Source: Candidatus Latescibacterota bacterium (GTDB lineage: Bacteria > Latescibacterota > UBA2968 > UBA8231). From it: DNA of 64,000 nt. Positions 2,156-22,019 of the stretch are shown in pieces; within the stretch, counting starts at the first letter, position 1, and the number at the start of each line of letters is the position of its first letter. The notes below the pieces were generated by a model that had not been told where the DNA came from, did not search any database, and saw nothing but the letters and a program-made list of their open reading frames with translations. The stretch covers positions 416,001 to 480,000 of the forward strand of contig OZ242214.1 in the NCBI GenBank assembly GCA_965206595.1. Reading direction: 5' to 3'. The position numbers and the translations under genes are program-made.

Positions 2156-2313
2156 GTCGTCCTTTCCGTGAACTCCGTTGCAGATCATCCGGGCGGCCGC
2201 CCCGGCGTCCAGGATGTACCGCCTGCAGGAGCGGCTTCCAGGCTTCCCTGTCCTTGGAACGGTGCCGGGCGGTTGCGTAGCATAGGTGGAAAGCTGAACG
2301 GGGAGCAACCGGA

Positions 2314-3769: not shown

Positions 3770-3977
3770 AGGTCGAACCGGGCCGCGGCCACAGTGGACC
3801 CCTTCGCCGGGAGCGACATGGTCTGGTTCCTGGGCGCGCAGGTCCGAGGAAACCAGCGACCTGGTGCCCGTGCGTGTTAAGCGTACGAAGGAGGTGCCGA
3901 AGCTCCCGGCTCGCAAAGCGCCCGAGCGAGTCGTACCGGGGGTGTACGGCGAGCGAAGGCAACGCGGGGAGCCGGGA

Positions 3978-4038
3978 TTGAGGGGAAAAATCGCACAGAT
4001 GAAGGGGTTTGGATTGAAACCGCGATTTTTCCCCTCAA
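3978..4038. repeat. Perfect 17-bp inverted repeat within a palindromic intergenic element
   Basis: TTGAGGGGAAAAATCGC (3978-3994) / GCGATTTTTCCCCTCAA (4022-4038). Confidence 0.85.
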
Positions 4039-4141
4039 GATGCAGCGGCGGCCGAATCACGCGGAATAGTGGGCGCAGGCACTCGTTCAGACGGAGTTGC
4101 GCGCGAGGAAGCCGTCAACCCTACATCGGAGCAACGTGGAA

Positions 4142-4819: not shown

Positions 4820-4840
4820 AAACCGCGAGCGTTTTCTACC

Positions 4841-7203: not shown

Positions 7204-7988
7204 GAATTATATAGATAACTACGCAAGCGCAACTTTCGTAAACCCATCCGCGAATTTAAAGAAAATCTGGTATAATATAGTAGAGAAAATACCAGAGAGA
7301 AGGACATCCAGGTCCTCAAGTGTTTAGCCCGGAAACTCGGAAGCATGTCAGATTGACACCACGGGTTAAGCCGCTGGGGTGAGGAATCATTCCGTTTGGT
7401 TGACAAGTTCACAAAGCAAACTGAATCTAATTGCTGGGTCGGCGTGCGATACTGCCGGGAGGCAACTGGCAGCAGGTTGTCATCTTGCTGACCATTCGGA
7501 AGGATTCTCTGCTTCCCAGGTGCAGCCTGATCTTTATGCGCAAGACGGGTATTCTCCTTCGGAGAATACTGACGGGACGCAGGGGGCAGCGGTTGTCACC
7601 TTGCTGACTTTTCGGAAGGATTCGCCCTCCCTCCACCGATGATGAGTGAAGGGAGTCGGAGGGACCTCCGTCTCCACAAGATCCCGGTGCGTTAGCCGTT
7701 TCTTCATCATCCGCGCCGTCAAATACCTCATCTGCTCCTCGGAGTCCAGGTGGCGGATATTGTACCTGCCTGCGAACTCGTTGAGGTATCGGGGCAAATA
7801 CTTCGGAGATACGTGGCGATACCCGTGATAGGTTCCTTTCGCCAGAGCATTAAACGATTCCGCACGGTTCGTTCCGGGGCGGCTCTGACGTATTCACCTT
7901 TTTTGTGGTTTACGGATTCGTGCCTGCTGGCCCATCCGAAATCGGAATAGGAACTGAACTCGTCGCTGTATAGGATTCCATTCTTTTT

Positions 7989-9452
7989 GGCTATATCCGG
8001 GTTTTTCAAAGGACATTTTATAGCATGTACAGAGAGAGATATTGAGTGATTCACACGGTACGGAATCGGGCCGGAATCTGCGCAGGGATATCGAGGTCTC
8101 CGACGCACAGGTAAATGAGGTCGGCAAAGGCATCCAGAGATTTAAATCCACTGGCTCGATTCTTGACCATGCGGATGATTCGATTGAGCCCTTCGGCGGC
8201 GGCGTTGGTCAGGTGCGTGTCGACGAAGGCCGTGATGCCGGCCGCATGCTTGCGCACCGTGTTGACGAACCTGCGCAGGGGCTCCAGGCGGCTGCGCAGG
8301 GCCGCCGTCGTCCACTTCTTGAGGAAGCGTTCGGCGGCCCAGCGCGCCTTGTAGCGCCAGAAGTGCTCGAACTCGTCCTTCAGGCGCCAGGCGCGGTAGA
8401 TGCGGCGGTTGGCCTTCTCCAGGGTTTGGAGCGTGCGCCGGTCCTTTGGCGAGCGCCGGGCGGAGTGATGCAGCAGCACCCAGCGCAGGCCCTTGAGCAG
8501 CTTGCGGTCCTCGCCGCAGGCTTGCCGCCACTGTTCCTTGCGCACCTCGTCGACGGCTTCGTTGAGGGCCTTGACGACGTGGAATCGGTCCAGGACGAGC
8601 TGGGCGTTGGGGCCGTGCTGGCGGATGGCGCCGATGAAGGTCTCGCTCATATCGCAGCAGGCCCAGCGGATACGGGCCTTCCGGAAGGCGCTGAGATGGT
8701 CCCGGAAGAACGTATCGATCGTTTCGCGGGCCTTGCCCTTGCCGATCCAGACGACACAGGAGCGCTCCAGGTCGTAGACCAGGGTGGCGTATTTATGGCC
8801 CTTGGCGTAGGAGATCTCGTCGATGCCGAGGGTCGTCAGCGCGCGGATGCGATGGCCTGTACGCCGGCGCTCGATGAGCCGGTGCACCTGGTCGGACAGG
8901 GTCGAAGGAGCCAGGCCCAGCAAGCGCGCGGCGGTGACCTGCGGCATCCACTGGCAGTAGGTCAGCAGCAGGTATTCGAAGCGGTAGCTGACCCGGGCCG
9001 AGGGCGCTGCCCAGGGCACCTCCTCGACGTGCCGGCCGTGGGTCGGACAGCGGATCTCTCGAGGGCGGTGGTACAACCAGACGGTACGGCCGCAAATGCG
9101 GACGTCGCGCCAGCGGCGGGGCTCCATGACCTGTACGATCTTGCCCCGGCGCCCACACTCGGGACACCGGCACCCGTTCCTTTGGGGCTTCACCGCGACC
9201 ACGACGGCCGCTTCCTCCCCGTGTCCTTCGAACCACACGCCCACAGCGCCAAACCCCTTGAACTTGAACAGCTTGGAGACGAACTTCATAGCGGTCATAG
9301 GTCGCCTTCCCTTCCCTTTCCTGGGGAGTGCTTGATGGGGATACACCAAGCATAGGGAACGACCTATGGCCTTGTCATGTACTCAGATGAACAGCAAGGG
9401 CTCAGGTACTTTCCGTACTTACGTTTCGGCGTTGAAAAACCCGGATAGACCC
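7989..9452 (-). mobile_element. ISL3-family insertion sequence with 21-bp TIRs and 8-bp target duplication
   Basis: Left end GGCTATATCCGGGTTTTTCAA (7989-8009). Right end TTGAAAAACCCGGATAGACCC (9432-9452). TTCTTTTT is duplicated at 7981-7988 and 9453-9460. Confidence 0.92.
8051..9298 (-). CDS. ISL3-family transposase
   Basis: CPECG/CPTHG zinc finger, LGIDEISYAKGHKY, CCDM, VLDRFHV and TNAAAEGLN DDE motifs. Confidence 0.92.
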   Translation of the reverse strand: MTAMKFVSKLFKFKGFGAVGVWFEGHGEEAAVVVAVKPQRNGCRCPECGRRGKIVQVMEPRRWRDVRICGRTVWLYHRPREIRCPTHGRHVEEVPWAAPSARVSYRFEYLLLTYCQWMPQVTAARLLGLAPSTLSDQVHRLIERRRTGHRIRALTTLGIDEISYAKGHKYATLVYDLERSCVVWIGKGKARETIDTFFRDHLSAFRKARIRWACCDMSETFIGAIRQHGPNAQLVLDRFHVVKALNEAVDEVRKEQWRQACGEDRKLLKGLRWVLLHHSARRSPKDRRTLQTLEKANRRIYRAWRLKDEFEHFWRYKARWAAERFLKKWTTAALRSRLEPLRRFVNTVRKHAAGITAFVDTHLTNAAAEGLNRIIRMVKNRASGFKSLDAFADLIYLCVGDLDIPAQIPARFRTV

Positions 9453-10669
9453 TTCTTTTTCAGGTTTTTCCTTACGATGGGGAGCAAGGTCTTGCCCTTC
9501 CTGTCGGGGGTCACCTCGGTGGCTACCCTGCCGGTTTCCCGGCAGCATACTACGACCCCGATACTCACGCCCTTCTGCCAGTTGCCGTCAAACTTCTTGT
9601 TGAGGTGCCTGTTTTTATCCTTTCCCCCGAAAAAGGTTTCGTCTATTTCAACGGCGCTGCTGTTGAGGCTTTCCTGTTCTCCCCACCCTTCCCGGATGCG
9701 ATGCAGCATGAACAATGCCGACGAATACGCAAGGCCGAGGTCGCGGGCAAGCTGCCTGGCGCTGATTCCCTTCGGGCGGGACAGGTGCAGGTGGATGCCG
9801 ATGGCCCATATCTGCAAGGGGATCTTGGAGTGAGACATCACCGTTTTCGTGCGAACGCTGAATCGCTTTCGGCAGTCGCCGCACCAATACGGCTGGGGTT
9901 TGCGGTTAGGGCATTCCGTTATCATGCCGTAGCAGCCCCAATGCGGGCAGTGTATGTTGACGGGAAGGCCGTCTACCGTCTTCCCCCATCTGAGTTCTTC
10001 AAACCATTTTTCCGCTGTTTCATCATCTGGAAACATTCTGAATAATTCGATTAAGGATAAACTTTTACCATTCTTCACTCCGATTACCTTCGGGCCGTGG
10101 AATACCGAACTTGAGACCAGCGGCCCTCATAAAATATTGTGATTCACGCTCCCATAGGATTCCTTTCGGTTAGTGGGATGGTGACTCTGTCGGTGTTCGC
10201 CGACAGAAGGGACTGAGGAAGCGGCAGCGGATGCTGAGGGCTTCCTCTTCGAATTACCATTATTGTACCTGGATTTTCTAAAAAAAAAATCGGCTTGCAG
10301 GAAATTTCCATAAAGCTCGTAACGGCGAGGGCGAACTTTAGTTTCTGGAAGCGGGAGAGGGGGTGTGGCAGGGGAGGCAAGGAGGTCGGCGGTGGATGCA
10401 GGAAGGCCTGATTCAAGGGGGGATGAGCATCCAGACGGTTCCTTCAGGAGCTGGAGCCGGGGTGTGGCTTTTGCGGGGTAGGTCCTGGGGGGAGGGGATT
10501 GCGGGGCTGCAAGCCCGGTGTCGCTGGAGGTCTCAGTCCGGATCGGCGTTACCTAAAAAGGATTCAGGAACTGCGGGTCGAGGTGGCGCTGAGGGATACG
10601 ACCTGGTGCTTCGCCGACGAGGGAATCTTCATCCCTTTGGAGAAACGTCTGCTATCAGCGCCGCTACAT

Positions 10670-10752
10670 GAACGGCATGACCCAGCTGCGCGGCCTGAAC
10701 AACTACCCCGAGCAGGAGGCGAGTATCAGGGAATTACCATCAACTGTGTACA
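10670..10752. repeat. ~80-bp direct repeat, copy 1 (copy 2 at 12134-12214)
   Basis: Shared cores CTGAACAACTACCCCGAGCAGG and TCAGGGAATTACCATCA, ending in TGTACA. Confidence 0.85.
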
Positions 10753-10771
10753 TCCATAGGACTATCGAAAC

Positions 10772-11569
10772 CTACCTGAACCTACCAGCGGCTTCCCGTA
10801 ATTCAAAGATGTTATTCATCTGTTCCGCGTTTGGTCTACGTCCGATCTTACCTAAGAAATCGCTCGCAACATCGGAATCGGTGATAGGCGTATCGCCACT
10901 GGGGTCGATTGCTGAGTCGATATACTGCACTGCCTTTGCGAGCTGCTTGGTATGGGCTATAAATGCTCCGGCCCTCGGTTCAATAACAACCTTGTTCCCT
11001 ATCTGTGAGTCGAGCAACCTTATGCTGATGTAGTTCAAAACTGAATGAATTTCGTCCAAGGCGTTCCCCACTTTTTCAATGCTTGCAGAAGCCAAGGGTT
11101 CAGGATTGGGTCCTATTACTCGGGAAAGGTCAGTATGAGCGATGACTCTGTTTCTCCAGTCACGCGCAAATTCTCCAGATTCAATCGCAGTATTGACGCG
11201 ACTACTCACTTCGCAATGCAATTCTGCATCTTCGCAAAGCTCCGGCAGCTTCAAGATGGTAAGATTGTCCTTTCCCTTGCCGCTACTAACAGGGTCGGTC
11301 AACTTGCTCACGAGCAGTATTAGATTCTCCCAGAATACCCACTGAACATGCAAAAGAAATCCACCCATAATTGCTCTTAGAGGTTTGGCATCCTCAGCCC
11401 TGGTGAGTATCCGAAGCTCTCTGATTGTTATTGTTCCCCAACACCAGTTATTTACCAAGGCATGAAATATTGTCCCGAATTCTACCCCGAGCTTATCCTG
11501 GTACTCTTGCTTTACTTCAGACGAACTTCTTTGTCGCCTCTCTGTCATTTTCCATCTTCCTTTTGCCAT
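10772..11569 (-). CDS. HEPN-domain protein (AbiU2-like), putative RNase/defence effector
   Basis: LILLVSKLTDP...NLTI and RNRVIAH (R-x5-H HEPN-type motif); AT-richer. Confidence 0.7.
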   Translation of the reverse strand: MAKGRWKMTERRQRSSSEVKQEYQDKLGVEFGTIFHALVNNWCWGTITIRELRILTRAEDAKPLRAIMGGFLLHVQWVFWENLILLVSKLTDPVSSGKGKDNLTILKLPELCEDAELHCEVSSRVNTAIESGEFARDWRNRVIAHTDLSRVIGPNPEPLASASIEKVGNALDEIHSVLNYISIRLLDSQIGNKVVIEPRAGAFIAHTKQLAKAVQYIDSAIDPSGDTPITDSDVASDFLGKIGRRPNAEQMNNIFELREAAGRFR

Positions 11570-12133
11570 CTTCTGTTCTCATTGGGGAAGCATTCAAATC
11601 GTATCACTTCTGGTTTCCCCTGTTCCAGTTGCACTTCCTGTTTCATTTTCATGGCTTGTAGGGGGCGTATTTCTTCGCCGCGGTATTGCAGCCGACGAAC
11701 AGAACCCCTGCGATGAGAAGATTCACTGCCTCTCTGTCATTCCTTCACCGGAACATCGACATCGACTTCGATCTTGGCGCGCGCCTTGACCTCATAGGGT
11801 GGACGCTCCAACGACTTCTTTCTCAAGGGTCACCGTCGTGGCCGTAGAATCCCCAATCGTAGTCACCGGCGATCCGGGCTCCTCGTCCCAAGGATCTTTG
11901 TCGTCGGGCGGATTGATCAGGTCCCAACCCGACAGAAGGATGGCCGTGGCGAAGATGGTGGCCTGGAGCAGCGTGAAGACAGTCATAATACTCTTTCCTC
12001 AAGGGTTTCAAGCGAAACTTCCAGCACAATCGCCACTGGAAGGATTCGATCTGGCGGTGCTGTTCTCAACGGCAAGGCGAGGATATCGGCATCCCCTTGA
12101 GCGGAACGGACCTCAATCAGAGGTCGCCAACAG

Positions 12134-12214
12134 GAACGGCATGAATCACGCTGCGCGAACTGAACAACTACCCCGAGCAGGGGGTGAGTGTCAGGGAATT
12201 ACCATCACTGTACA
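12134..12214. repeat. ~80-bp direct repeat, copy 2
   Basis: Matches 10670-10752 and lies 10 bp beyond the stop codon of the 12224..12991 gene. Confidence 0.85.
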
Positions 12215-12223
12215 CTCTTGCAT

Positions 12224-12991
12224 TCAGTCCTCCTTCATTTTTCTCAGGTCAACAATTTGATCTACAGTCAATTCCTTTTCTATGGAATTGCAGATCTCAA
12301 CCATGCGAGATTGAAATGGCGAAAGAGGGCCTTTCTTATCCTCTCTCCACCTCAAGTGAAGAAGATATCCCAAGCAATCTGGCAATACACCACCAGGTAA
12401 ATTCTTGGCATAGAAAGATACGTCCCCAATTTTGCTATGATCAATTGACATATCCCCAGGAGATAAAAATTCGCTCATCCATTGATTGCTCACCGTGTTT
12501 CTCTGGAAAATAAAATATTGTAGGGGGGAATCGTCTCTTTCCATGAAGTAATGGAATAGATGATCAGATCTGGCAGAAGCCTTTAGTCCCATAAAGCACA
12601 TGGGAATCAACCATTCTTTTTCAAAGTTGATGTAGCTCTGTTTGCGACAATTATGGAATAACTCCTCCGCCCTTTCGTTTCTCCGATATCCAATTCGGAC
12701 AATAGGTATCTTCATTTCATTAATTATTGACGCCAGCCCTTCCATGAATTTAAACTTCGTTTTATCAGGCTCGTCAGGGAATAACTCGCATGCGTGTACT
12801 TCGGGAAGGCTGGGAATATGGTTACGAGGCGATGGGAATAAATCTCTGAGAAGAGAAAAGTATTTTTTCCTGAAAGGCACAATCTGAGTTGCCATGAGAT
12901 ATACGCCAGTCAGTGCAGTTACTTGGTTTTTCCTGGATTCGGTATGATCCGCATACTTTTCGTCAAGATAAACATGAACAGATTCAACCAT
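12224..12991 (-). CDS. DUF3800-like (RNase H-fold) protein
   Basis: N-terminal VYLDE, internal EVHACEL and C-terminal LPDCLGY resemble the DUF3800 pattern. Confidence 0.5.
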   Translation of the reverse strand: MVESVHVYLDEKYADHTESRKNQVTALTGVYLMATQIVPFRKKYFSLLRDLFPSPRNHIPSLPEVHACELFPDEPDKTKFKFMEGLASIINEMKIPIVRIGYRRNERAEELFHNCRKQSYINFEKEWLIPMCFMGLKASARSDHLFHYFMERDDSPLQYFIFQRNTVSNQWMSEFLSPGDMSIDHSKIGDVSFYAKNLPGGVLPDCLGYLLHLRWREDKKGPLSPFQSRMVEICNSIEKELTVDQIVDLRKMKED

Positions 12992-13068
12992 CTAGAGTAA
13001 CCTCCAGGAGAAAAAATGGAACCTTACAGAGATTATCATCACTGTACAGATCATCCTTCTCCGGTTAT

Positions 13069-13962
13069 CTATCTGTAGTTCGGAATCTCCAACCTTCCCT
13101 CTTGCACCTTCACGAGATACTGGAAGAAGTTTTCTCGATCATACCCCCTCATAAACTTGCAAATCTTGCGTAGCTCACCAGGAATCTGGTCACGAGAAAT
13201 TCCAGGATGAGGTGAGTTACCAGGATGTAGAAATCGTATGGCATACTCGACATTCTCGGTTATCAGGCGACTGATTCCAGAGTATATGCTCTGAAAACGA
13301 TCTTTTCTTCCCCCTTGGCCTTCCATAAGAGTGTTGGCCATTTCAAACATCTCTTCGTGCAGGGCACGACAGAGCCTTCTGGTGACATTCGGATACTCTA
13401 CCTCATCCTTCAACCTAATGAACTCATCTTCCAGGATGTATCTGATTCCTCTCGCTACTTCCAGCATCGCGCCAATGCTCACCTTCGGTTGTCTTGCACT
13501 GTCCTCGGGAAAGCCCTCAAGGAGGAAATACCTCCAAGTAGTATATCCATCCTGTCTTCCTCCATCTCCCCGAGCACCCACGTCAAGTTGATCGAGAAAA
13601 GGTTTCAACGTACGAAGAGGAATGTAGCTGTGCAGTTCAACGTACCCCTCGTACGTTCGATCCAGAGTTTCCTTGTGTTTTTCGCTCAGCTTTTCATACA
13701 GCCTGCTCAACCGATGTCCCCAACCGGATTTACCTGTATGGAACTGGATGAGTAGCTTCAGTCCCTGCTCTATGGCGGAATATGCCGACGGGACCCACAC
13801 CCACCCCTGAATCCCTTCATAGTCAGGTGCCATGTCAGGGGCTACCCCACCAGACTTATTGTACATTTTTGAGAGCGCGCTGATGGCCTCGGCAGTTCTC
13901 ATGTACGCAGGTCTCAAATGGTTGTCACTCGGCATTGCCGTTGCCTTCTCCCCTTCAGTCAT
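13069..13962 (-). CDS. HEPN-like domain protein
   Basis: AIEQGLKLL...GHRLSRLY...WRY pattern typical of HEPN domains; GGAG RBS before ATG 13962. Confidence 0.55.
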   Translation of the reverse strand: MTEGEKATAMPSDNHLRPAYMRTAEAISALSKMYNKSGGVAPDMAPDYEGIQGWVWVPSAYSAIEQGLKLLIQFHTGKSGWGHRLSRLYEKLSEKHKETLDRTYEGYVELHSYIPLRTLKPFLDQLDVGARGDGGRQDGYTTWRYFLLEGFPEDSARQPKVSIGAMLEVARGIRYILEDEFIRLKDEVEYPNVTRRLCRALHEEMFEMANTLMEGQGGRKDRFQSIYSGISRLITENVEYAIRFLHPGNSPHPGISRDQIPGELRKICKFMRGYDRENFFQYLVKVQEGRLEIPNYR

Positions 13963-14606
13963 TGGACAGTTCTCCCAATGTCCAGTACACAGTTTCCCCA
14001 TCTTTCGGAAGCCGTAGAGCCTGTCGCGTACTGCTTGCCTGAGCAAGTAGAATCTGGAAGCAGTCCATGAGATCGTCAGGAACTCCTCGACAAAAAGCTG
14101 CGCGAGGCCGAGAACTAGAGAACGCCGAGCTGGACCGGGAAAGCGACCGGCTCAAGTGCCTGTATAATGCGACGGTAGAATACCGATCAAAAGCGCGATT
14201 TTTCCGATTATCTGGTATAACCTAATAGAAAGCATTTATCCCCTCACCTCCAGGACTGCATCCCACCGAATCACGGTTTCCAACTTCGCAAGTACCGCCG
14301 ACAAAGGCGACCCGGGAACCGGCTTTTCCTTCCGTGGTTCCCCGTTTCCCTAAATCTCATATCACGCTGAGTCCATACCGACCCTTCTTGCAGACAACAG
14401 CATAGTAGTGAGTTGACGCAGTTGCCGCTACCGATTCGCTGAATTCTGCCACGGGGTTCTTCTCCGAATCCCGATCCTGCCGGAACCCGAATACCTGTCA
14501 ACACCCTGCCCGTCAGGCTGTCTCAAGGCGAGGTCAGGGCCGGTCTGTGTCCTTCTGTCTGATGGTGGCCACCGATAATCACCTCCCTGAAAAAAGGAGA
14601 ATAAAG

Positions 14607-14813
14607 ATGACGCAAGATCAGCTGAAAAGGGCCAGAGACGCCCTTGGCATGAAGCAGTGGGAGCTGGGCATCGCCCTCGGTGTCAGTGAGGCCGAAGTGT
14701 GCCTGTGGGAGAAGGGGAAGCGAACGATGCCGGAAAGGTATCTCCGTCTCATGGGAGCGATCATCCATCACCAGGAAAATGGCTTACGCCTGTCCTACAA
14801 AGCTGGGTCGTAA
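14607..14813 (+). CDS. XRE/Cro-like helix-turn-helix protein, copy 1
   Basis: MTQDQLKRARDALGMKQWELGIALGVSEAEVCLWEKG; RBS AGGAGA. Confidence 0.85.
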   Translation: MTQDQLKRARDALGMKQWELGIALGVSEAEVCLWEKGKRTMPERYLRLMGAIIHHQENGLRLSYKAGS

Positions 14814-14816
14814 AAG

Positions 14817-14969
14817 ATGGTTTTCAAGCCGGTCTGCTGTAAATGCGGCCAGGAAATCAGGCCCTATCACCTGTTCTATATGCCCACCCCCGGCGAGTAC
14901 CTATGCATCCCGTGCAGCGAGAAGGAAGACCCCGAAGAGGAAAAGAAAACTGCCGACGATGACGGATAG
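14817..14969 (+). CDS. 50-aa Cys4 zinc-finger microprotein with acidic tail, copy 1
   Basis: MVFKPVCCKCGQEIRPYHLFYMPTPGEYLCIPCSEKEDPEEEKKTADDDG*. Starts 3 bp after the HTH stop, and the frame is conserved in copy 2. Confidence 0.65.
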   Translation: MVFKPVCCKCGQEIRPYHLFYMPTPGEYLCIPCSEKEDPEEEKKTADDDG

Positions 14970-15202
14970 TTTGTGGGCAGGGGAAATCGAGTAGGTTGGA
15001 ACGGCAATTTGTCCGTCTGTTGAACTATGCCCCCCGAGCGTAGTCCCTTGAGCCGGAAAGAGAGCTCCTGCATTTTGCCGATTCGCAAAGACCCGCCTTT
15101 CGGTTCCCTCTGCCAATTTTCTCCCCCACCTCTCCGGGACAGGCGATTTCCATTCATATACTATCAGGATTGCTCTTAGAAGATTGTTCATCGATTGCCT
15201 CT

Positions 15203-17539
15203 CTATCGGAGTAATAGAAGGCGTTGTGATTGCTTCCCTCCAGAGTAGGTTAGTCGGACAAAGTAAACTCCTGATGCCTGATCCCTGGCATCCCAGGAAG
15301 TTATATAAGAACCAGCTGGGTGCGCCCGACTAACCAAGGTGTTCACCTGTTGCCCCAGAATATTAAACACGCCGAGGGATACCATACCGGGCTCTGACAA
15401 GCGGTATGGTATCTGTATCTGATTGTTGAATGGATTTGGGTATGGTTGCAGCAGCACTGACTTTATTGGATACTGCCCCGTAGTCTCGATGGCAGTTGGA
15501 ATCTTTTCTATCTGACGACTCCATATCTGACCCTGGTGGCCCACAACTATCAGTCGATTTCCAGCCCGATCCATTCGAGTAAGATAAGGGCCAAGTCCCT
15601 CACTGAAAACCGCCTCTTCTACCCAGTTTCTTCCTCCATCAGTTGTATGCAATATACGATCACCGGCAACCCATCCAGTTTTTTCATCCAAAAAAAACAC
15701 ACTGTTAAGCACATAATTTCGAGCAAAATCCCTATTGTATCCCCAGAGGCCCCTATATCCATCTTCTGTGGAAGTATATTGTACAGAAAGGTGCTCCCGT
15801 TCAATCCTATAAATTATTTCTCCGCTACCTCCGGCCCATGCTGATCCGGTCTCAAACCCAAAAACACCACCGAGAATACCACCGGCACTCCAAGCCGATC
15901 CAGTTATTCGATTCCAGGATTCCCCTCGGTCTCTGGTTTGAAAAATCATAGCCCCATCGTCCCAATCGGTTGATCCCGTTTGTTCAGTAAACCCCCCTAC
16001 AATCCATCCCCAATTGCCAGAAAAATAAAAATCTCTGAAATGTACCCATCCACAGCAGTTCAACCGCTCACAGATTCTCTCTCGACATTCCCCATCGGTT
16101 CCTTTGTAGTCTTCAGGAAGTTCCAGTTCCACCTCTTCCCAGGAAAGCCCTCCATTAATGGTGTGAAAAAGATGCTTGTTTGCTATTATCCAGCCTTCAG
16201 ATTGGCTATGAAAATAAACCCGTCGAGGACTTCCCCCTCTGTACTTCTCTGGCAGAGGGAGGTTATCATAGATGATGCTCCAGGTAGTTCCTCCATCTTG
16301 CGTTTTAACCAGATTTTGACCTTGAACCATCAGTCCGTTATCCCTATCCCAAAACCAAACCGCAGAGCCTCCCTCCGTACTTACCTGCCTCCAGGTATTC
16401 CCGCCATCTTCGGTTTTTAAAACTCCTTCATAGCCCACAGCCCACCCGGTTTGGCCGTCAACAAGCCTCAAATCAAAAAGGTCCCAGGATACAGTACTGC
16501 GGTGAATCTGCCAATCTTCGGGGACTGCAATCGATAGATTTTCATCGGGTTGGACAAACTCTGTAGTAGTAATTTGAGACGACAAATCCCACAGATAGAT
16601 ATTTCCACCCTCATAGGCTCCTCCATTAGCCATAATGGTTCCGTCTGGAGAAAATGCCACAATATCAAGTTCCCCAGACTTCTCAAACTTCATGCTGCCA
16701 AGCATTGTTCCGGATACTACATCCCACAACTGTAGTTCTCTGTAGCCTACCTTTACAGCTGCAATAGATCCGTTGGGAGAAAGGACAGATTGGCCATAAT
16801 CATAATGCCCGAACAAGTGGCCGATTATCTGCCCGCTGGGAAACTCTCGGATGCGGACAATTCCTCTTGTGTTAATGGTAACAATTGTTGAGCCGTCGGG
16901 GTTTATGACATACGAAGTAATCTCATCTGCCCCATCTTCCCCCTTAAACGAAGATATCTTTTCTCCGGTTTCTGCACTTGTTACATAAATTCCTCCTCCA
17001 TAACTTTGTTTGATTAACACTTTTCCGGTTGGATCAAAAGTAATACGTCCTGAATAATGAACACCACCCCAATCCTCCGAAGGAAATACTTCTTCAAGTT
17101 CCGTCATATCCCATACTCGTAGCGGTGCAGAATACCCAACACTTGCCAATACAGATCCATCAGGGGAAAACGCCAAGTCTCTTATACTACCGTCATCCTT
17201 GCTTAGGGAGTCCAGTAGGTCTCCGCTCTCCACATCCCAAAGATGAATGCGAGCTCCTTTATGTTCTCTCCACGGTTTTTCACTCCCGCTGGCCAGAGTG
17301 GCTCCATCAGGAGAAAACTCCAATGTGTTTACAAAAGGTTGAGATATGACAACCATCTCTGTGGAACTGGCTATATCCCATATCCGTATTCCATCCCGGT
17401 GGCTGCTGGCCATCAGTCGAGAGTCCTGTGAGATAACAAGGTCAGAAACGTCAGCCGGTGTCTCCAATTGAAAAACATCTTGACCCTGAACACTTACCAC
17501 CGAAAAACTCAGGGATAGAACTAACCCAAGCTTATTCAT
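15203..17539 (-). CDS. Secreted WD40 + YCF48/BNR beta-propeller protein with PNPFN (T9SS/FlgD-like) C-terminal domain
   Basis: Signal peptide MNKLGLVLSLSFSVVSVQG, FSPDG repeats, TxDGGxTW Asp-boxes and QPYPNPFN...SGVYFVRL...RLLLLR. Confidence 0.85.
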   Translation of the reverse strand: MNKLGLVLSLSFSVVSVQGQDVFQLETPADVSDLVISQDSRLMASSHRDGIRIWDIASSTEMVVISQPFVNTLEFSPDGATLASGSEKPWREHKGARIHLWDVESGDLLDSLSKDDGSIRDLAFSPDGSVLASVGYSAPLRVWDMTELEEVFPSEDWGGVHYSGRITFDPTGKVLIKQSYGGGIYVTSAETGEKISSFKGEDGADEITSYVINPDGSTIVTINTRGIVRIREFPSGQIIGHLFGHYDYGQSVLSPNGSIAAVKVGYRELQLWDVVSGTMLGSMKFEKSGELDIVAFSPDGTIMANGGAYEGGNIYLWDLSSQITTTEFVQPDENLSIAVPEDWQIHRSTVSWDLFDLRLVDGQTGWAVGYEGVLKTEDGGNTWRQVSTEGGSAVWFWDRDNGLMVQGQNLVKTQDGGTTWSIIYDNLPLPEKYRGGSPRRVYFHSQSEGWIIANKHLFHTINGGLSWEEVELELPEDYKGTDGECRERICERLNCCGWVHFRDFYFSGNWGWIVGGFTEQTGSTDWDDGAMIFQTRDRGESWNRITGSAWSAGGILGGVFGFETGSAWAGGSGEIIYRIEREHLSVQYTSTEDGYRGLWGYNRDFARNYVLNSVFFLDEKTGWVAGDRILHTTDGGRNWVEEAVFSEGLGPYLTRMDRAGNRLIVVGHQGQIWSRQIEKIPTAIETTGQYPIKSVLLQPYPNPFNNQIQIPYRLSEPGMVSLGVFNILGQQVNTLVSRAHPAGSYITSWDARDQASGVYFVRLTYSGGKQSQRLLLLR

Positions 17540-18294
17540 TTTGAAAACTCCTGCTATGAGTCTGTGAGAACCTCTCGACCGATGACCATAAGTCCAGGAT
17601 TCAAAATGGATATTTCATTGATAAGCCAACCCTGAAGACGGCTTTCCAGATCCAACGGCACCGATTGCACTTGTAGCAAATGGGTTTCTACCGGGGAGTC
17701 TACTTTCCAAAGCTGTATTTCATCCGGCATTCAATTCGCACTCTTCAGTTAGAGAATCCCTGACTCTTCGTCGGCCAAAGCCTGTAGCCGCCTTCCCTGA
17801 CCTGGAAGGCCGTTTTCCTCGTTCTCCCTTGTGGTTGCGTTTTATCAGATCCGCGATTTTACGAAAAATCTGGTATAATATAATAGAGCAAGAATTTATT
17901 CCCCTCCCTGCAAGACCTGCAACTGCGCGTCTTCCGCGATCCGAAGGACTTCATCCGAACCACGGTCTCTAACTCCGCCAGCACCGCCGACAAAGGCGAC
18001 CCGGGAACCGGCCTTTTCCTTCCGTGGTTCCCCGTTTCCCTAAATCTCATATCACGCTGAGTCCATACGACCCTTCTTGCAGACAACAGCATAGTAGTGA
18101 GTTGACGCAGTTGCCGCTACCGATTCGCTGAATTCTGCCACGGGGTTCTTCTCGGAATCCCGATCCTGCCGAAACCCGAATACCTGTCAACACCCGGTCC
18201 CGTCAGGCTGTCTCGGGGCCGGTGCAGGGCAGTTCTGTGTCCTTCTGTCTGTCGGTAGTCACCGACAATCACCCCTGAAAAATGGAGAATGAAA

Positions 18295-18501
18295 ATGACG
18301 CAAGATCAGCTGAAAAGGGCGAGAGACGCCCTTGGCATGAAGCAGTGGGAGCTGGGCATCGCCCTTGGAGTCAGTGAAGCCGAAGTGTGCCTGTGGGAGA
18401 AGGGGAAGCGAACGATGCCGGAAAGGTATCTCCGTCTCATGGGAGCGGTCATCCACCACCAGGAAAATGGCTTACGCCTGTCCTACAAATCTGGGTCGTA
18501 A
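18295..18501 (+). CDS. XRE/Cro-like helix-turn-helix protein, copy 2
   Basis: Near-identical to 14607..14813 (I/V and A/S differences). Confidence 0.85.
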   Translation: MTQDQLKRARDALGMKQWELGIALGVSEAEVCLWEKGKRTMPERYLRLMGAVIHHQENGLRLSYKSGS

Positions 18502-18503
18502 AG

Positions 18504-18656
18504 ATGGTTTTCAAGCCGGTCTGCTGTGTATGCGGCCAGGAAATCAGGCCATATCACCTGTTCTATATGCCCACCCCCGGCAGGCACCTATGCATCCCCT
18601 GCAGCGAGAAGGAAGATCCCGAAGAAGAAAAGAGAACTGCCGACGATGGCGGATAG
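18504..18656 (+). CDS. 50-aa Cys4 zinc-finger microprotein, copy 2
   Basis: MVFKPVCCVCGQEIRPYHLFYMPTPGRHLCIPCSEKEDPEEEKRTADDGG*; all cysteines conserved. Confidence 0.65.
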   Translation: MVFKPVCCVCGQEIRPYHLFYMPTPGRHLCIPCSEKEDPEEEKRTADDGG

Positions 18657-19032
18657 TTTGTGGGCAGGGGAAATCGAGTAGGTTGGGAGGCAATGGGCTG
18701 AAGCCTCTTTTCCGTCTGTTGAACTATGCCCCACGAGCGTAGTCCCTTTGAGCCGGAAAGAGAACTCCCGCATTTTGCCGATTCGTCAAGACCCGCCTTT
18801 CGGTTCCCTCTGCCACTAATCCACTCACCTCGCCGGGATAGGCGATTTCCCATATCCCTCACAGACCTAACCAACGGCTGAAGGCCATCGGCATCACCAA
18901 GAGCACGGCCCCATCGAAGGAGGCGGATCTAAGAGCAATACGAAATGTCCCAAATTGGTTGTCACGAGCTCCGTGAACGAAAGAAAATAATATACCTAAC
19001 TTGGTGATAACTCGCTTCCTTTTGGCACTGTT

Positions 19033-19353
19033 TCAGTCTGAAATCTCGAAAGAGGCCCACAGGTTCATCGTGCTTATACTGTTGGCCAGCTCAAGGGAGG
19101 CAATCTGGATATCGAAACCGCTGGTATTGCGTAGGGTGATCTCCCACGCTCCGGTAACATCGAACCCTTCGTCCGTTTCCCTGCTGGACAAGAAACGCCA
19201 GCGGGTATCTGCCTCGATGGGGGAGCCTTCCCAAGACAGACCGTCTTCTTCGTGGGGTGCAGTGTTCAGGCGGACATCGTTCGACGGTTCGACAACATCG
19301 GGCTTGGAATTGCAGGCCAACAGCCCAATTAGACACAGAATTCCGGTTCTCAT
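19033..19353 (-). CDS. Small putative lipoprotein (possibly truncated)
   Basis: MRTGILCLIGLLAC lipobox-like N-terminus. Confidence 0.5.
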   Translation of the reverse strand: MRTGILCLIGLLACNSKPDVVEPSNDVRLNTAPHEEDGLSWEGSPIEADTRWRFLSSRETDEGFDVTGAWEITLRNTSGFDIQIASLELANSISTMNLWASFEISD

Positions 19354-19367
19354 AAGCCGCCGGTCCC

Positions 19368-19821
19368 TTACTTGAGTCGTTGGTAGCGACCTCTTCCTAC
19401 GCGCTTGAGTTCGCCCAAGCTATTTGTGAGATGTACAATTATAATGTTGCTCAGGGTTCTATCGGGTGTACTTCGCCCAGATATGGTAGGGGAGGACAAG
19501 GTATCTCCCTCGACTGTAACGAGCAGGGTATCGCCCTCGATGGAGTAGGCGACTTCTCCCTCGAATCCGGCAACGAAACTATCTACCAAAGCCGGGCTGC
19601 GAGGGATCCCGAGGTTCTGGTAGAGGCTCCAGTTCTCCATCCGGACCAGCCGTAACTGTGACAGCGACTACCCGGTAAATCTCGTAGCTGTCTGCATCGG
19701 GAACAAGGGTCCATTCAAGATACACAAACCCCTCATCCTGTCCCTCTATCCATACAGAATCAGGAGCAGGAACACTCCATGCCGATTGAGCCAGTAGGAG
19801 CAGAAAGGCAAGGCGGGTCAT
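19368..19821 (-). pseudogene. Secreted hypothetical protein split over two frames (FN3-like start)
   Basis: MTRLAFLLLLAQSAWS signal, then LEWTLVPDADSYEIYR. Continues in overlapping ORF 19368..19640. Confidence 0.4.
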
Positions 19822-19869
19822 TCTACCTCTTCCTTCATTCATTCCAGATTTCAGACAAAGGAGCCTCAA

Positions 19870-20118
19870 ATGCCTTCAGAACTGCATCAACCTTCCCCAG
19901 CACTCGCAGTGATTGTCGGGGATGCACCGCTGTCCTGGGTGAAGATAGTCGAACTGGTAGGTGAATATATCAAGGTGAACAACCTGGAGGCGGAGCCGCC
20001 ATACATCGCCGTAGACGCCGCTCTACGGTCCCTGGTGGATCGGGGGGACAAGGTGTCCATGAACGAGCTTACAAGGGCGCTGAAGCGCCACATAACCCCA
20101 ACAGGAAGGAGTGTTTAG
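19870..20118 (+). CDS. Hypothetical protein (82 aa)
   Basis: AAGGAG RBS before ATG; plausible helical composition. Confidence 0.4.
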   Translation: MPSELHQPSPALAVIVGDAPLSWVKIVELVGEYIKVNNLEAEPPYIAVDAALRSLVDRGDKVSMNELTRALKRHITPTGRSV

Positions 20119-20236
20119 GAACTGCATAATCCGCGATAGCCCGGAAGCGAGATCCCATTATCCATGGAAAGAGCCATCCGCGACGACAAACCCCCTCCTG
20201 GAGCAAGGGAAACTCGTTCCGGTCCAAAACGCATCG

Positions 20237-21250
20237 CTACTCTCCTTTGCGTTTGATTTCTCCCCAACTTCGAAGCCTAACATTTGTAGGCTTATTGGGA
20301 GAGATAAATCTAAGTGAATAACCTGGAATTCTTGGGCCAGTTCTATGCTGGTATACGATTGCATCTCCAGCAGGGCTCCACTCGGGGCGGGAATTCCATT
20401 GTCCATCAAAGGTTATCTGACGTACTGTCTTAAGCCCTTCCCCCTCGGCAATAAACAATTCCCTTGTGCCATCCGACAGCTCTAAGTCGAAAGCTAAGCT
20501 TTTGCCGTCTGGAGACCAGGCCAGCCCCGAAAGACTTAATAATCCGTCCGCAACACGAATACTTTCTCCATTTTCGTTTTTTGCATAGATCCATCCTGTA
20601 TACTCACCCACGAAGTTTCCATACCAAGAGCATGCATACCGACCGTCGAGGGTCCAATCTACTGGACTGGAGCATGATTTACCACTTCCGTGAATTCTAC
20701 TTTCTGATTCCGGATTCAAAATAAATGCAGAGGTCCTCTCGGACATTCGCGGAGTCCAACCCTGTACACTGTAAACCGTTATCCCTAATGGTCCCCAATT
20801 TCCTACGCCGTAATCGTGATAGCCAAGTACAATTTCCCGAACATCTTCTCCGTTAATATCCCTGATGAATATAGAGAAAATATCCCAAAGGGTCTCATAT
20901 TCCTCTACATATCTCTCAGATGATTTTGATAAAGCATACTGAGTCCCATCTGGTGACCAGCCTAATAATAGGCCACCATCTGTATCAGCAATCCTACGCA
21001 GGTTGGAGCCGTCTGGCTGAACGATAAACACCTCGCCGAGATGCTGGTAAATAATTCTGTCATCGACAGGAGACCAGTCCGGCCTTATTCCAGGTCCGAG
21101 TAATACAGACTGTTCCGTATAGGCGTTTACTACAAACATATTTCCTAACGGATAGTTTGGATACACAAACCGATCTCCCTCTGGAGACCAGGATAGCCAT
21201 GCATCTACGGGCGCGGAGAGGACTACTGCCAATCCTAAAACAAAGGAGAA
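20237..21250 (-). CDS. TolB-like/PD40 beta-propeller secreted protein with C-terminal SWGEIK motif (start uncertain)
   Basis: Repeated WSPxG motifs, hydrophobic leader VLGLAVVLSAPVDA, and C-terminus TNVRLRSWGEIKRKGE. Confidence 0.7.
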   Translation of the reverse strand, partial: FSFVLGLAVVLSAPVDAWLSWSPEGDRFVYPNYPLGNMFVVNAYTEQSVLLGPGIRPDWSPVDDRIIYQHLGEVFIVQPDGSNLRRIADTDGGLLLGWSPDGTQYALSKSSERYVEEYETLWDIFSIFIRDINGEDVREIVLGYHDYGVGNWGPLGITVYSVQGWTPRMSERTSAFILNPESESRIHGSGKSCSSPVDWTLDGRYACSWYGNFVGEYTGWIYAKNENGESIRVADGLLSLSGLAWSPDGKSLAFDLELSDGTRELFIAEGEGLKTVRQITFDGQWNSRPEWSPAGDAIVYQHRTGPRIPGYSLRFISPNKPTNVRLRSWGEIKRKGE

Positions 21251-21254
21251 TAAA

Positions 21255-21473
21255 ATGCCCGACGAAGTAAACCTACCGAGCTGGGTAATCCGCCGCTGGG
21301 TTGTAGTGAAAGACGGATCGGTTTCCCGCTTTGAGACCTTGCCGGAAGCAACAGCACACAAGGAGGAGCACGGCGGAACCGTTCGTGAGCTGGAGTTTCG
21401 ACTATGCAGCGTCAAAACAGTTCCTCAGAACTACAAGCCTAATCAAGGCTGGATTAGGTGCGACGGGAAGTAG
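21255..21473 (+). CDS. Small hypothetical protein (72 aa)
   Basis: Strong RBS AAAGGAGAATAAAATG, nearly identical to that of the HTH gene; co-oriented with radC. Confidence 0.5.
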   Translation: MPDEVNLPSWVIRRWVVVKDGSVSRFETLPEATAHKEEHGGTVRELEFRLCSVKTVPQNYKPNQGWIRCDGK

Positions 21474-21581
21474 CCTCCGAAAGAAGAAGGGGGAGGGTAT
21501 CTGTTGGGAGGGGGATGATGTTTGTACAGCAGTTAAGTACATGTACTACTACTTACTAACCCATTAGAAGAAAGGACTATT

Positions 21582-22019
21582 ATGAAACTCGAAGTCGTAG
21601 AACGAACCGTGAAGCAGATATGGCAAGACGTGTGCAGCGAGGCCCTTGTCGGCCCCGGCGATGTTATCGCCTACCTGGACAGCCTGGATTTCAGGGATTC
21701 GGACAGAGAGGTTTTCATTGTCCTGCACCTCGACGCTCGCAACCGCGTTACGGCGCACGAGATAACGTCTATCGGCAGTCAGACGGCATCCCTCGTGCAT
21801 CCGAGGGAGGTATTCAAGTCGGCAGTCCTGAAGGGAGCTAACGGCATTATCCTTGCCCATAATCACCCCAGCGGCGACCCTGCGCCGTCGAAGGAAGATA
21901 TCGACCTTACCCACAGACTGCAGGAAGCGGGGGGACTGCTTGGTATCGAGGTAATGGATCATATCGTCGTTGCCCCTCCTGATGGAAGCGTGTCCATGAA
22001 GGAGCTCGGGATTGTCTGA
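21582..22019 (+). CDS. radC: RadC-like JAB/MPN+ domain protein (JAB-only form typical of mobile elements)
   Basis: REVFIVLHLD...VHPREVFK...LAHNHPSGDPAPSKEDI...DHIV. Confidence 0.92.
   Translation: MKLEVVERTVKQIWQDVCSEALVGPGDVIAYLDSLDFRDSDREVFIVLHLDARNRVTAHEITSIGSQTASLVHPREVFKSAVLKGANGIILAHNHPSGDPAPSKEDIDLTHRLQEAGGLLGIEVMDHIVVAPPDGSVSMKELGIV

What the first reader, a model, noticed from the sequence alone, without database searches (positions are those of the whole stretch)
14190..18855. Duplicated ~1-kb module (promoter, structured RNA, HTH, Zn-finger microprotein, structured RNA) bracketing a cargo gene
Seen: two direct copies (14190-15155 and 17848-18855) enclose the 778-aa beta-propeller gene. 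Each has a TGGTATAA promoter-like motif, a ~320-nt non-coding leader, a 68-aa XRE HTH, a 50-aa CCxC...CxxC protein and a ~170-nt trailer. The non-coding parts look as conserved as the ORFs, and there is no recombinase or transposase in the unit. Inference: either a non-autonomous mobile or cargo-capture unit, or an RNA-plus-microprotein regulatory system. I recognise no named family with this architecture. It is the best candidate here for an undescribed system.
Basis: partly seen in the sequence, partly recalled or inferred. Interest (0 to 1): 0.8.

Follow-up and report, generated by a model that had tools for sequence, protein, structure and literature searches.

The report
Repressor mini-operon of giant IS1595-type transposons
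The duplicated 1-kb unit is a real, multi-copy mini-operon (a Cro-like DNA-binding protein plus tiny zinc-ribbon proteins) that sits inside giant IS1595-type transposons of an uncultured Latescibacterota bacterium and most likely represses their transposase, and its long leader shows no sign of being a structured RNA.

Summary
Two direct copies (window 14186-15160 and 17844-18860, ~91% identical) flank the 778-aa WD40/T9SS gene. They are 2 of 6 copies in this genome and 18 in three genomes of one Latescibacterota genus. The ancestral unit is an extended -10 'P-box' promoter, a ~390-nt leader, a Cro-like XRE HTH, a 73-aa and a 50-aa zinc-ribbon ORF, and a ~165-nt trailer. Both the HTH and the 50-aa ORF are under purifying selection (pN/pS 0.1 and 0.24). 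The leader evolves almost neutrally and shows no covariation. The trailer is about twice as conserved as synonymous sites, but a structure is not proven. The unit is not self-mobile. It lies inside giant IS1595/ISXO2-type transposons. One 24.9-kb element holds copies E and F and has 195-nt terminal inverted repeats, an 8-bp target duplication and uninterrupted target copies in relatives. The P-box is also part of the transposon's terminal repeat. A 20-bp palindrome (CTGTCGGTGnnCACCGACAG) lies 27-48 nt before each HTH gene and about 100-150 nt before transposase genes, or directly before radC-tnp. Best reading: a transposon-encoded repressor operon acting in trans on all copies. This is a new variant of a known kind and moderately interesting.

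The parts
7201..7405 (+). Left terminal repeat of the IS1595-type island. It has a sharp outer boundary (GG)GGAATTATATAGATAACT and contains a P-box at 7264-7285.
   Evidence: 8-9 copies in the genome share this end next to unrelated outer flanks. It is 97.5% identical to the copy at genome 958104.
7594..10078 (-). IS1595/ISXO2-type DDE transposase gene, split by an ISL3 insertion (7989-9453)
   Evidence: Pfam DDE_Tnp_IS1595 E 2.3e-8 on the N-terminal piece. tblastn finds the C-terminal piece at 7594-7988. ISL3 transposase E 1.1e-67.
10187..10206 (.). 20-bp palindrome CTGTCGGTGTTCGCCGACAG, 109 nt upstream of the transposase start (putative operator)
10772..14046 (-). Variable low-GC cargo: HEPN_AbiU2 protein (10772-11569), a 255-aa ORF (12224-12991) and a 325-aa ORF (13069-14046) of no known family
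   Evidence: Pfam AbiU2 E 6.2e-14. No family for the other two. GC 41-47%.
14186..14230 (+). P-box of copy A (GCGCGATTT...TATCTGGTATAACCTAATAGA), an extended -10-like promoter
14231..14606 (+). Leader of copy A (non-coding, mosaic). A degenerate palindrome lies at 14561-14576.
14607..14813 (+). HTH gene of copy A (68 aa, Cro/XRE-like)
   Evidence: Pfam HTH_31 E 1.7e-4. phrog_14076 E 1.2e-7. 434 Cro E 0.008. pN/pS about 0.1.
14817..14969 (+). Zn50 gene of copy A (50 aa, CCxC...CxxC, acidic tail)
   Evidence: 13 copies with 4 invariant Cys. pN/pS 0.24. No family.
14970..15160 (+). Trailer of copy A (conserved non-coding; a 12-nt deletion removes the hairpin apex)
15203..17539 (-). 778-aa WD40 + BNR/Sortilin-like + T9SS C-terminal sorting domain protein. 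It is convergent with A and divergent from B.
   Evidence: Pfam
17844..17888 (+). P-box of copy B (CCGCGATTTTACGAAAAATCTGGTATAATATAATAGAG). By eye about 36 of 40 bases are identical to the P-box of the terminal repeat.
   Evidence: sequences printed
17889..18294 (+). Leader of copy B, with the palindrome CTGTCGGTAGTCACCGACAA at 18249-18268
18295..18501 (+). HTH gene of copy B (68 aa)
18504..18656 (+). Zn50 gene of copy B (50 aa)
18657..18860 (+). Trailer of copy B
19870..22019 (+). Backbone genes shared with other islands: SWIB (19870-20118, +), PD40 propeller (20237-21415, -) and RadC-like JAB (21582-22019, +). Homology to the radC-tnp units of G002 runs on to about 22360, and no right terminal repeat was found.
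   Evidence: Pfam SWIB E 2e-11 and RadC E 3.6e-40. Paralogous sets at 6.05 and 6.74 Mb. Homology extent.

Best explanation
The two copies belong to a lineage-specific mini-operon. Its parts are an extended -10 promoter box (P-box), a ~390-nt untranslated leader, a 434-Cro-like XRE HTH, one or two translationally coupled zinc-ribbon microproteins (Zn73, Zn50) and a conserved trailer. The operon is a resident part of a family of giant IS1595/ISXO2-type DDE transposons that carry defence-like and eukaryote-like cargo. The HTH most likely acts as the family's repressor. As a dimer it would bind the 20-bp palindrome CTGTCGGTGnnCACCGACAG, which lies just before its own gene (autoregulation) and before the transposase genes or the radC-tnp operon. 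Because the HTH copies are nearly identical, every copy would act in trans on all islands in the cell. That includes islands with no module of their own, as in an immunity system. The Zn microproteins would be modulators of unknown action. The 'bracket' around the WD40 gene arose by accretion or recombination of module-bearing island segments, followed by local gene conversion. It did not arise by transposition of the 1-kb unit. Shown here: copy number, coding selection, motif positions, transposon ends, target duplication and uninterrupted target copies. Inferred: DNA binding, repression, action in trans and any role of the Zn proteins.
For: Copies: 6 in G000 and 18 HTH copies in three genomes of the genus. 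HTH-only copies are still intact where an IS cut off the rest. Selection: over 45 pairs, HTH pS is 0.313 and pN 0.033. Over 78 pairs, Zn50 pS is 0.292 and pN 0.069. Transposon: DDE_Tnp_IS1595 E 8e-26. The ends at genome 2741459 and 2766321 are inverted (195 nt, 78% identical) and are flanked by GGTCGATC on both sides. The 8-mer occurs once in uninterrupted target copies of G001, and the same uninterrupted junction with one base different (GTGTCGATC) is in G016. Copies E and F lie inside this 24.9-kb element. The window island starts with the same kind of end at 7201. 12 of 18 modules have an IS1595-type gene within 7 kb. P-box: 15 hits in G000 against 1 in the reversed-genome control; 8 of them lie 61 nt inside a terminal repeat. 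Palindrome: the perfect 16-mer GTCGGTGnnCACCGAC occurs 4 times against 0.08 expected from base composition. One is in copy F, two lie 109-111 nt before transposase starts, and one lies 15 nt before radC-tnp. In 303 kb of module contexts from three genomes there are 19 relaxed sites: 11 lie 27-48 nt before an HTH start and 6 are nearest a transposase start (5 of them 103-151 nt away, 1 at 370 nt), which leaves 2 others. Genome-wide there are 33 relaxed sites (6 in the control), and 11 of them lie before HTH or tnp/radC genes. The palindrome is invariant while the surrounding leader differs at 23% of sites. The HTH is the size of Cro; 434 Cro scores E 0.008. The A-B pair is a mosaic: 97-100% identity at -284 to -93, but 74-83% in the outer leader, where B is closer to copy C and to a copy in another genome.
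Against: No binding or expression data exist, and no RNA run holds the locus. The palindrome lies about 370 nt downstream of the P-box, which is unusual for a repressor unless it blocks elongation or a second promoter exists there. Copy A's palindrome is degenerate. With the relaxed palindrome pattern, no site was listed in front of the transposase copies at 2742-2747 kb. In the G002 module contexts only 3 non-HTH relaxed sites were listed. Of these, 1 (370 nt from a tnp start) may lie in a radC-tnp unit, 1 lies before the transposase of a separate upstream element, and 1 lies near a SWIB gene. The right end of the window island was not found, so placing A and B in a transposon rests on the left end and on analogy with the 24.9-kb element. 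The shared 30 nt could reflect common descent of a regulatory segment bound by some other factor. The role of the Zn proteins is unexplained.
Confidence: 0.55

Rival explanations
1. The HTH regulates the neighbouring, divergently transcribed cargo (defence-like genes). On this reading the module is a portable regulator of defence cassettes and not of the transposase.
For: Every copy examined in G000 has a variable operon pointing away from it. A has the 325-aa and 255-aa ORFs and AbiU2. B has the WD40 gene. E has a SIR2_2 protein (E 1.9e-9). Copy G2e has large ORFs that looked like DUF262, ATPase and PLD-helicase proteins by eye (no family scan was run).
Against: No relaxed-palindrome site was listed in the module-to-cargo intergenic regions. 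The cargo differs between copies while the HTH recognition region is invariant. The palindrome does recur before tnp and radC.
Confidence: 0.15
2. It is a toxin-antitoxin-like addiction module that stabilises the islands. The HTH would be the autoregulating antitoxin and a Zn-ribbon microprotein the toxin.
For: The operon is tight, with overlapping or 3-nt-spaced ORFs. A palindrome lies before the operon. The module is multi-copy on mobile DNA.
Against: Neither Zn ORF matches any toxin family. Zn73 is lost in 5 of 6 G000 copies and Zn50 is missing in E. At least 4 copies keep only an intact HTH under purifying selection. The palindrome also lies before transposase genes.
Confidence: 0.12
3. 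The 1-kb unit is a non-autonomous mobile or cargo-capturing element. Its P-box would act as an internal transposon end recognised by the IS1595-type transposase.
For: The P-box is shared with the terminal repeat. Modules occur in pairs around single genes in three loci. An 82-nt direct repeat flanks the AbiU2 cassette.
Against: The outer 45 nt of the terminal repeat is absent from the modules. No common sharp outer boundary was seen in the type-1 copies compared or in F' against the 4411311 P-box. The unit has no inverted ends and no target duplication. The pairs are direct in two loci and convergent in the third.
Confidence: 0.08
4. It is an RNA-based system in which the leader and/or the trailer are structured regulatory RNAs.
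For: The trailer is about twice as conserved as synonymous sites (p 0.151 against about 0.3). 96.7% of its cells are paired in a consensus fold, and 7 of the 15 pairs of its main helix vary only by wobble-compatible changes. Its fold z-score is -1.92.
Against: Rfam finds nothing at E <= 1. Leader: covariation term +0.38, 2 of 30 pairs with a change on both sides, z -1.14. Trailer: 0 of 30 pairs with a change on both sides, and 500 of 500 shuffles reach the observed pairing. The leader is a mosaic of unrelated segments in different copies.
Confidence: 0.07

Closest known systems
IS1595-family elements with passenger genes (ISNwi1+/ISNha5-type; Siguier, Gagnevin and Chandler 2009, recalled and seen only as a cited title in PMC12561309)
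   Same: An ISXO2/IS1595 DDE transposase domain, terminal inverted repeats that start GGGG, and an 8-bp target duplication. PMC12561309 (abstract and passages read) reports 8-bp repeats and GGGG-initial inverted repeats for ISApl4. The end pattern GGnnATTAT matches what I recall for the ISNwi1 group.
   Different: The element here is 24.9 kb with about 195-nt terminal repeats and several tandem transposase copies. It has an inward promoter box in each terminal repeat and a separate HTH/Zn-ribbon operon. The known size range (up to about 8 kb) is recalled and was not checked.
IS1 InsA (recalled): a zinc-finger + HTH protein that binds the IS1 ends and represses transposase expression
   Same: A small Zn-binding plus HTH regulator encoded by an element related to IS1595, with a proposed role as transposition repressor.
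   Different: Here the HTH and the Zn ribbons are separate proteins in their own operon, kilobases from the transposase. The palindrome is not in the terminal repeat. No sequence similarity to the transposase Zn ribbon was found.
Phage 434 Cro/cI-type and mobile-element XRE repressors (for example ICEBs1 ImmR and SXT SetR, recalled)
   Same: A ~70-aa XRE HTH, a palindromic operator before its own gene and before the element's mobility gene, and likely action in trans (immunity).
   Different: There is no phage or ICE context: no match in the phage or plasmid collections, and neither an anti-repressor protease nor an integrase turned up among the ORFs I scanned. The mobility gene is a DDE transposase.
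MqsA-type antitoxins (recalled): a Zn-binding domain fused to an XRE HTH
   Same: The combination of a CxxC...CxxC zinc module with an XRE HTH.
   Different: The proteins are separate and in the opposite order, and no partner toxin family is present.

Membership tests
IS1595-family transposon (the island, not the 1-kb unit) | DDE transposase with the ISXO2/IS1595 catalytic domain | tested here: met
   PF12762 E 8e-26, 91.3 bits against cut-off 27, for the intact copy next to E. E 2.3e-8 for the split copy in the window.
IS1595-family transposon (the island, not the 1-kb unit) | Terminal inverted repeats | tested here: met
   2741453-2741645 against 2766327-2766134, 195 nt, 78% identical. The tips are identical: GGGGATTATATACATAATT.
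IS1595-family transposon (the island, not the 1-kb unit) | 8-bp target-site duplication and an uninterrupted target | tested here: met
   GGTCGATC lies on both sides in G000 and occurs once in uninterrupted copies of the target repeat in G001. G016 has the same uninterrupted junction with one base different. This is shown for the 24.9-kb element only. The window island has a left end but no recognisable right end or duplication.
IS1595-family transposon (the island, not the 1-kb unit) | N-terminal transposase zinc ribbon | tested here: inconclusive
   PF12760 E 0.002, 18.5 bits, below the cut-off of 25.4.
XRE / Cro-C1 HTH regulators | Match to the HTH_3 or HTH_31 profile | tested here: inconclusive
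   HTH_31 E 1.7e-4, 22.2 bits, below the cut-off of 27. phrog_14076 transcriptional regulator E 1.2e-7. 434 Cro E 0.008.
XRE / Cro-C1 HTH regulators | Binds a palindromic operator as a dimer | not testable with these tools
   A conserved 20-bp palindrome is present, but binding is inferred.
Type II toxin-antitoxin module | A recognisable toxin partner | tested here: not met
   Zn50 and Zn73 match no family in Pfam, PADLOC or PHROGs.
Known structured RNA family (Rfam) | Covariance-model match | tested here: not met
   0 matches at E <= 1 over window 13500-19500.
Prophage early (immunity) region | Similarity to phage genomes or a phage gene context | tested here: not met
   No blastn match in 50,697 phage records. 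The neighbours are a transposase, AbiU2, WD40, SWIB and RadC genes.
MITE-like non-autonomous element (the 1-kb unit itself) | Own terminal inverted repeats and a target duplication | tested here: not met
   No inverted repeat spans the unit's ends. Only the P-box region matches the transposon terminal repeat, in direct orientation.

The most novel reading that the evidence does not exclude
The P-box and the module together form a portable docking and regulation cassette of a new class of giant IS1595-derived transposons. The transposase, or the Zn-ribbon microproteins, would recognise P-box sites both at the termini and at internal modules. Module-bounded segments could then be mobilised or exchanged, capturing cargo. 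The HTH would impose cell-wide immunity on all copies.
Probability: 0.12. Interest if true: 0.7.

Novelty: new variant of a known kind. Interest (0 to 1): 0.5.

Why it matters
IS1595-family elements are usually thought of as 1-kb insertion sequences. Here a 25-kb member carries defence-like genes (AbiU2, SIR2) and eukaryote-like proteins (WD40, SWIB, and ankyrin-like repeats seen by eye in a relative's copy). It also carries a dedicated, highly conserved repressor operon whose palindrome lies before the transposase genes. If the circuit works as inferred, it is an immunity-like control for a DDE transposon family in an uncultured phylum. It would also give a compact, testable repressor-operator pair. 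The case is a caution too: long conserved 'leaders' in recent paralogues can look like structured RNAs when they are close to neutral.

Tried and rejected
Rfam at E <= 1 over 13500-19500 found nothing.

Leader structure: RNAalifold on 11 copies gave no covariation support, and the fold z-score was -1.14.

Trailer structure: a fold is possible, but 0 of 30 pairs changed on both sides and z was -1.92.

A fourth ORF in the trailer was rejected because the frame shifts between copies.

Zn proteins. No Pfam, PADLOC or PHROGs family matched. They show no similarity to the transposase Zn ribbon or to each other. The PDB profile search gave nothing below E 0.33. The ESM Atlas gave only unnamed small proteins, some viral, which is a lead only. 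The AlphaFold2 model of Zn73 had mean pLDDT 58.7, so I ran no fold search.

Complex prediction (HTH + Zn50 + Zn) returned 'no answer' with a score of 0.01. It is not used as evidence either way.

Expression: no RNA holder is listed.

The joints in read laying (for example 14974->18663) are best explained by contigs of other paralogous copies, because the loose ends match copy C and the P-box at 4411311. I do not take them as excision products.

Right end of the window island: I found no inverted terminal repeat and no 8-bp duplication. Homology to G002 units fades near 22360. The left flank belongs to a large WD40 paralogue family, so no orthologous empty site could be identified.

I looked by eye for an inner terminal repeat in the trailer and found none.

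Phage and plasmid collections gave no match.

Supplementary files of papers were not consulted. Siguier 2009 was not read and is recalled.

Slip: my reference for copy B's Zn50 (18505-18654) was one base out of frame. That row is void; the correct range is 18504-18653.
Full report
OBSERVATION. The duplication is real. The repeat finder lists collinear direct-repeat blocks between 14186-15154 and 17844-18850, spaced about 3688 nt. The pairwise alignment shows homology from about 25 nt before TCTGGTATAA to GGCGATTTCC about 190 nt after the second ORF. Each copy holds a 68-aa HTH (14607-14813; 18295-18501) and a 50-aa CCxC...CxxC ORF (14817-14969; 18504-18656) that starts 3 nt after the HTH stop. 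The 778-aa gene between them lies on the minus strand. It encodes WD40 repeats, a Sortilin/BNR-like region and a T9SS Por_Secre_tail. Contigs of a public run bridge 12500-14352, 15033-18000 and 18657-20500, and runs of two further studies hold 99%-identical pieces. The arrangement is therefore not an assembly artefact.

HOW MANY COPIES, AND WHERE. The genome (7.05 Mb, one contig) has six copies in three pairs:
- A and B in the window.
- C (295116-296006, minus strand) and D (289157-289677, minus strand).
- E (2757589-2758487, plus strand) and F (2761124-2762004, minus strand). These two converge on an amidohydrolase gene.

By DNA, 4 of 41 related genomes match. These are G000, the two other genomes of the same genus, and one 62-nt promoter-region hit in another genus. 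tblastn finds 18 HTH copies (6 + 5 + 7) and 13 Zn50 copies. Zn50 was found convincingly only in the 3 genomes of this genus out of 168 in the phylum; three further hits had E 0.002-0.007. In the 5.8-billion-protein collection, Zn73 has 49 clusters (53-92% identical) and the HTH profile 29 clusters (all 81% or more). None carries a Pfam domain or a name. Record titles of the relatives read 'MAG: Candidatus Latescibacterota bacterium'.

ANATOMY. In the relatives the unit has three ORFs: an HTH (up to 82 aa), a 72-80-aa CDIC...CIEC protein (Zn73), and Zn50. The ORFs overlap or abut. Copies A, B, C, D and F have lost Zn73. E has HTH + Zn73 only. Four copies in G001 and G002 keep only the HTH because insertion sequences or other DNA follow it.

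The leader is a mosaic:
- Type 1 (A, B, C, E, G1b, G2a, G2b) has the promoter box about 390-420 nt before the ATG.
- Type 2 (D, G2e, G2f) has the same box about 235 nt before the ATG, followed by an unrelated sequence.
- Other copies have other segments.
- All converge in the last ~100 nt.

SELECTION.
- Ten alignable copies (45 pairs): HTH pS 0.313 and pN 0.033; the last 210 nt of the leader differ at 0.234.
- Zn50 (13 copies, 78 pairs): pS 0.292 and pN 0.069.
- Trailer (11 copies): p 0.151.

Both ORFs are therefore real genes. The leader is close to neutral, apart from invariant islands. The trailer is constrained.

A-B is a mosaic. The two copies are 97-100% identical at -284 to -93. They are 74-83% identical in the outer and proximal leader, where B is nearer to C and to a copy of another genome. 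This points to recombination or gene conversion between paralogues and not to a simple tandem duplication.

RNA STRUCTURE.
- Rfam: nothing.
- Leader: consensus energy -13.9 kcal/mol over 251 columns, covariation term +0.38, 2 of 30 pairs with a change on both sides, z -1.14.
- Trailer: a long imperfect hairpin directly after the stop codon and a second helix. 96.7% of cells are paired. No pair changed on both sides, and every shuffle reaches the observed values. z is -1.92, with 8 of 200 shuffles folding as well.

A structured trailer remains possible but unproven. A structured leader is not supported.

THE LARGER ELEMENT. The promoter box (CCGCGAaTTT-N9-AAATCTGGTATAAyATArTAGAG) occurs 15 times in G000 at 4 or fewer mismatches, against 1 in a reversed-genome control. 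Eight occurrences share a sharp outer boundary 61 nt upstream (GGrATTATATAsATAAyT) next to unrelated flanks. Where a transposase gene lies next to such an end (window, 2126 kb, 2741 kb, 6.74 Mb), it is an IS1595-type gene converging on the end, at most about 540 nt inside it.

Two such ends, at 2741459 and 2766321, are inverted (195 nt, 78% identical). They enclose 24,863 bp. Inside are four transposase copies in tandem 3.8-kb units, a SIR2_2 gene, modules E and F, and an amidohydrolase gene. GGTCGATC flanks both ends. In G001 the two flanks are contiguous with a single GGTCGATC. G016 has the same uninterrupted junction with one base different. The flanks belong to another repeated element, so these are uninterrupted copies of the target and not necessarily the orthologous site. 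An 8-bp duplication and GGGG-initial inverted repeats fit the IS1595 family (PMC12561309, abstract and passages).

The window island begins with the same kind of end at 7201. It continues, in order:
- the transposase gene (7594-10078, minus strand, split by an ISL3 at 7989-9453);
- AbiU2;
- two ORFs of no known family;
- module A, the WD40 gene and module B;
- small minus-strand ORFs;
- SWIB, a PD40 propeller gene and RadC.

Homology to the [module ... radC-tnp] units of G002 runs to about 22360. I found no right terminal repeat and no duplication. 12 of 18 modules have an IS1595-type gene within 7 kb.

THE PALINDROME. The invariant core of the proximal leader is GTCGGTGnnCACCGAC, which extends to CTGTCGGTGnnCACCGACAG. 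The perfect 16-mer is expected 0.08 times from base composition and occurs 4 times: in F, 109-111 nt before two transposase starts, and 15 nt before radC of a radC-tnp pair at 6.05 Mb that has no module nearby. The split transposase in the window has it with one mismatch at 10187-10206.

Across 303 kb of contexts from three genomes there are 19 relaxed sites. Eleven lie 27-48 nt before an HTH start. Six are nearest a transposase start (five at 103-151 nt, one at 370 nt). One lies near a SWIB gene and one is far from any of these genes. Genome-wide there are 33 relaxed sites (6 in the control), and 11 of them lie before HTH or tnp/radC genes. The flanks (GTCCyTTCT...) are shared too.

The HTH is Cro-sized and its best solved relatives are weak: 434 Cro at E 0.008.

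INTERPRETATION. The simplest account is a transposon-encoded repressor operon. The HTH would autoregulate and would repress the transposase (or radC-tnp) through the shared palindrome. It would do so in trans across all islands, because the HTH copies are 90-99% identical within the genome. The Zn-ribbon microproteins are conserved and translationally coupled, but their role is open.

The pairs of modules around single genes (direct in two loci, convergent in one) fit island growth by accretion and recombination. The tandem 3.8-kb amplification inside the 24.9-kb element and the mosaic A-B identity show that such events occur.

Weak points:
- There is no expression or binding evidence.
- The palindrome lies far downstream of the P-box.
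- Copy A's palindrome is degenerate.
- No relaxed-pattern site was listed before the transposase copies at 2742-2747 kb.
- The right end of the window island is unresolved.

COMPARISON AND NOVELTY. The island meets the tested defining features of an IS1595-family transposon but is far larger than the members I recall. The module resembles IS1 InsA in function (zinc finger + HTH repressor, recalled) and XRE repressors of phages and ICEs. It is not a member of any named family. It is not a prophage region, not a recognisable toxin-antitoxin pair, and not an Rfam RNA. I rate it a new variant of a known kind, with moderate interest.

No RNA run was available.

Noticed in passing
window 7989-14216 = G000 89371-95598: A 6.2-kb segment (ISL3, half of the transposase gene, AbiU2, the two unknown ORFs, and the P-box of A up to TCTGGT) is duplicated with one mismatch. 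The second copy ends exactly where a 1.86-kb insertion sequence begins. Contig depth in the best run is 53 for this part against 34-38 next to it.
   Followed up: partly
G000 95599-97458 and about 30 other places: A 1.86-kb insertion sequence is present about 30 times, 27 of them full-length at 99.8% identity or more. It is followed here by a ~125-nt repeat family with dozens of copies. The genome is very rich in insertion sequences; the ISL3 at window 7989-9453 has at least 10 copies.
   Followed up: partly
window 10666-10747 and 12130-12211; also G000 2755900-2755987, 6065189-6065250, 291335-291379: An 82-nt direct repeat (88% identical) flanks the AbiU2 cassette. In the window and at copy E it recurs about 600 nt upstream of the IS1595-type transposase start. 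It could mark a cassette junction.
   Followed up: no
L080 (G000 2741001-2761000), about 850-13800: Inside the 24.9-kb transposon, transposase-plus-cargo units of about 3.8 kb are tandemly amplified at 92-96% identity. One unit is broken by other DNA.
   Followed up: partly
G000 2763634-2763708 (minus strand) and 4411248-4411331 (plus strand): Two P-boxes with the same upstream sequence as copy A's are followed by something other than the HTH leader. In F the box is separated from the leader by 1.6 kb that holds two antisense ORFs (93 and 177 aa). The box is therefore a portable promoter and is not specific to the HTH operon.
   Followed up: partly
G000 6.047-6.050 Mb and 6.735-6.742 Mb: Further islands carry SWIB, RadC and an IS1595-type transposase but no HTH module. 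One has the perfect palindrome directly before radC, and the other has a near-perfect one 250 nt before the transposase gene.
   Followed up: partly
window 4841-7159 (minus strand) and 22563-23570 (minus strand): The island sits between a WD40-repeat ORF and a reprolysin-like metallopeptidase ORF. Their paralogues lie about 2.6 kb apart elsewhere (2.872-2.877 Mb). The island may therefore have split a member of a large WD40/peptidase gene family, or landed beside one.
   Followed up: partly
terminal repeats, e.g. window 7264-7300: In the terminal-repeat version the P-box is part of an inverted repeat (TCTGGTAT ... ATACCAGA). It points inward, antisense to the transposase gene, which would allow an antisense transcript.
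   Followed up: no
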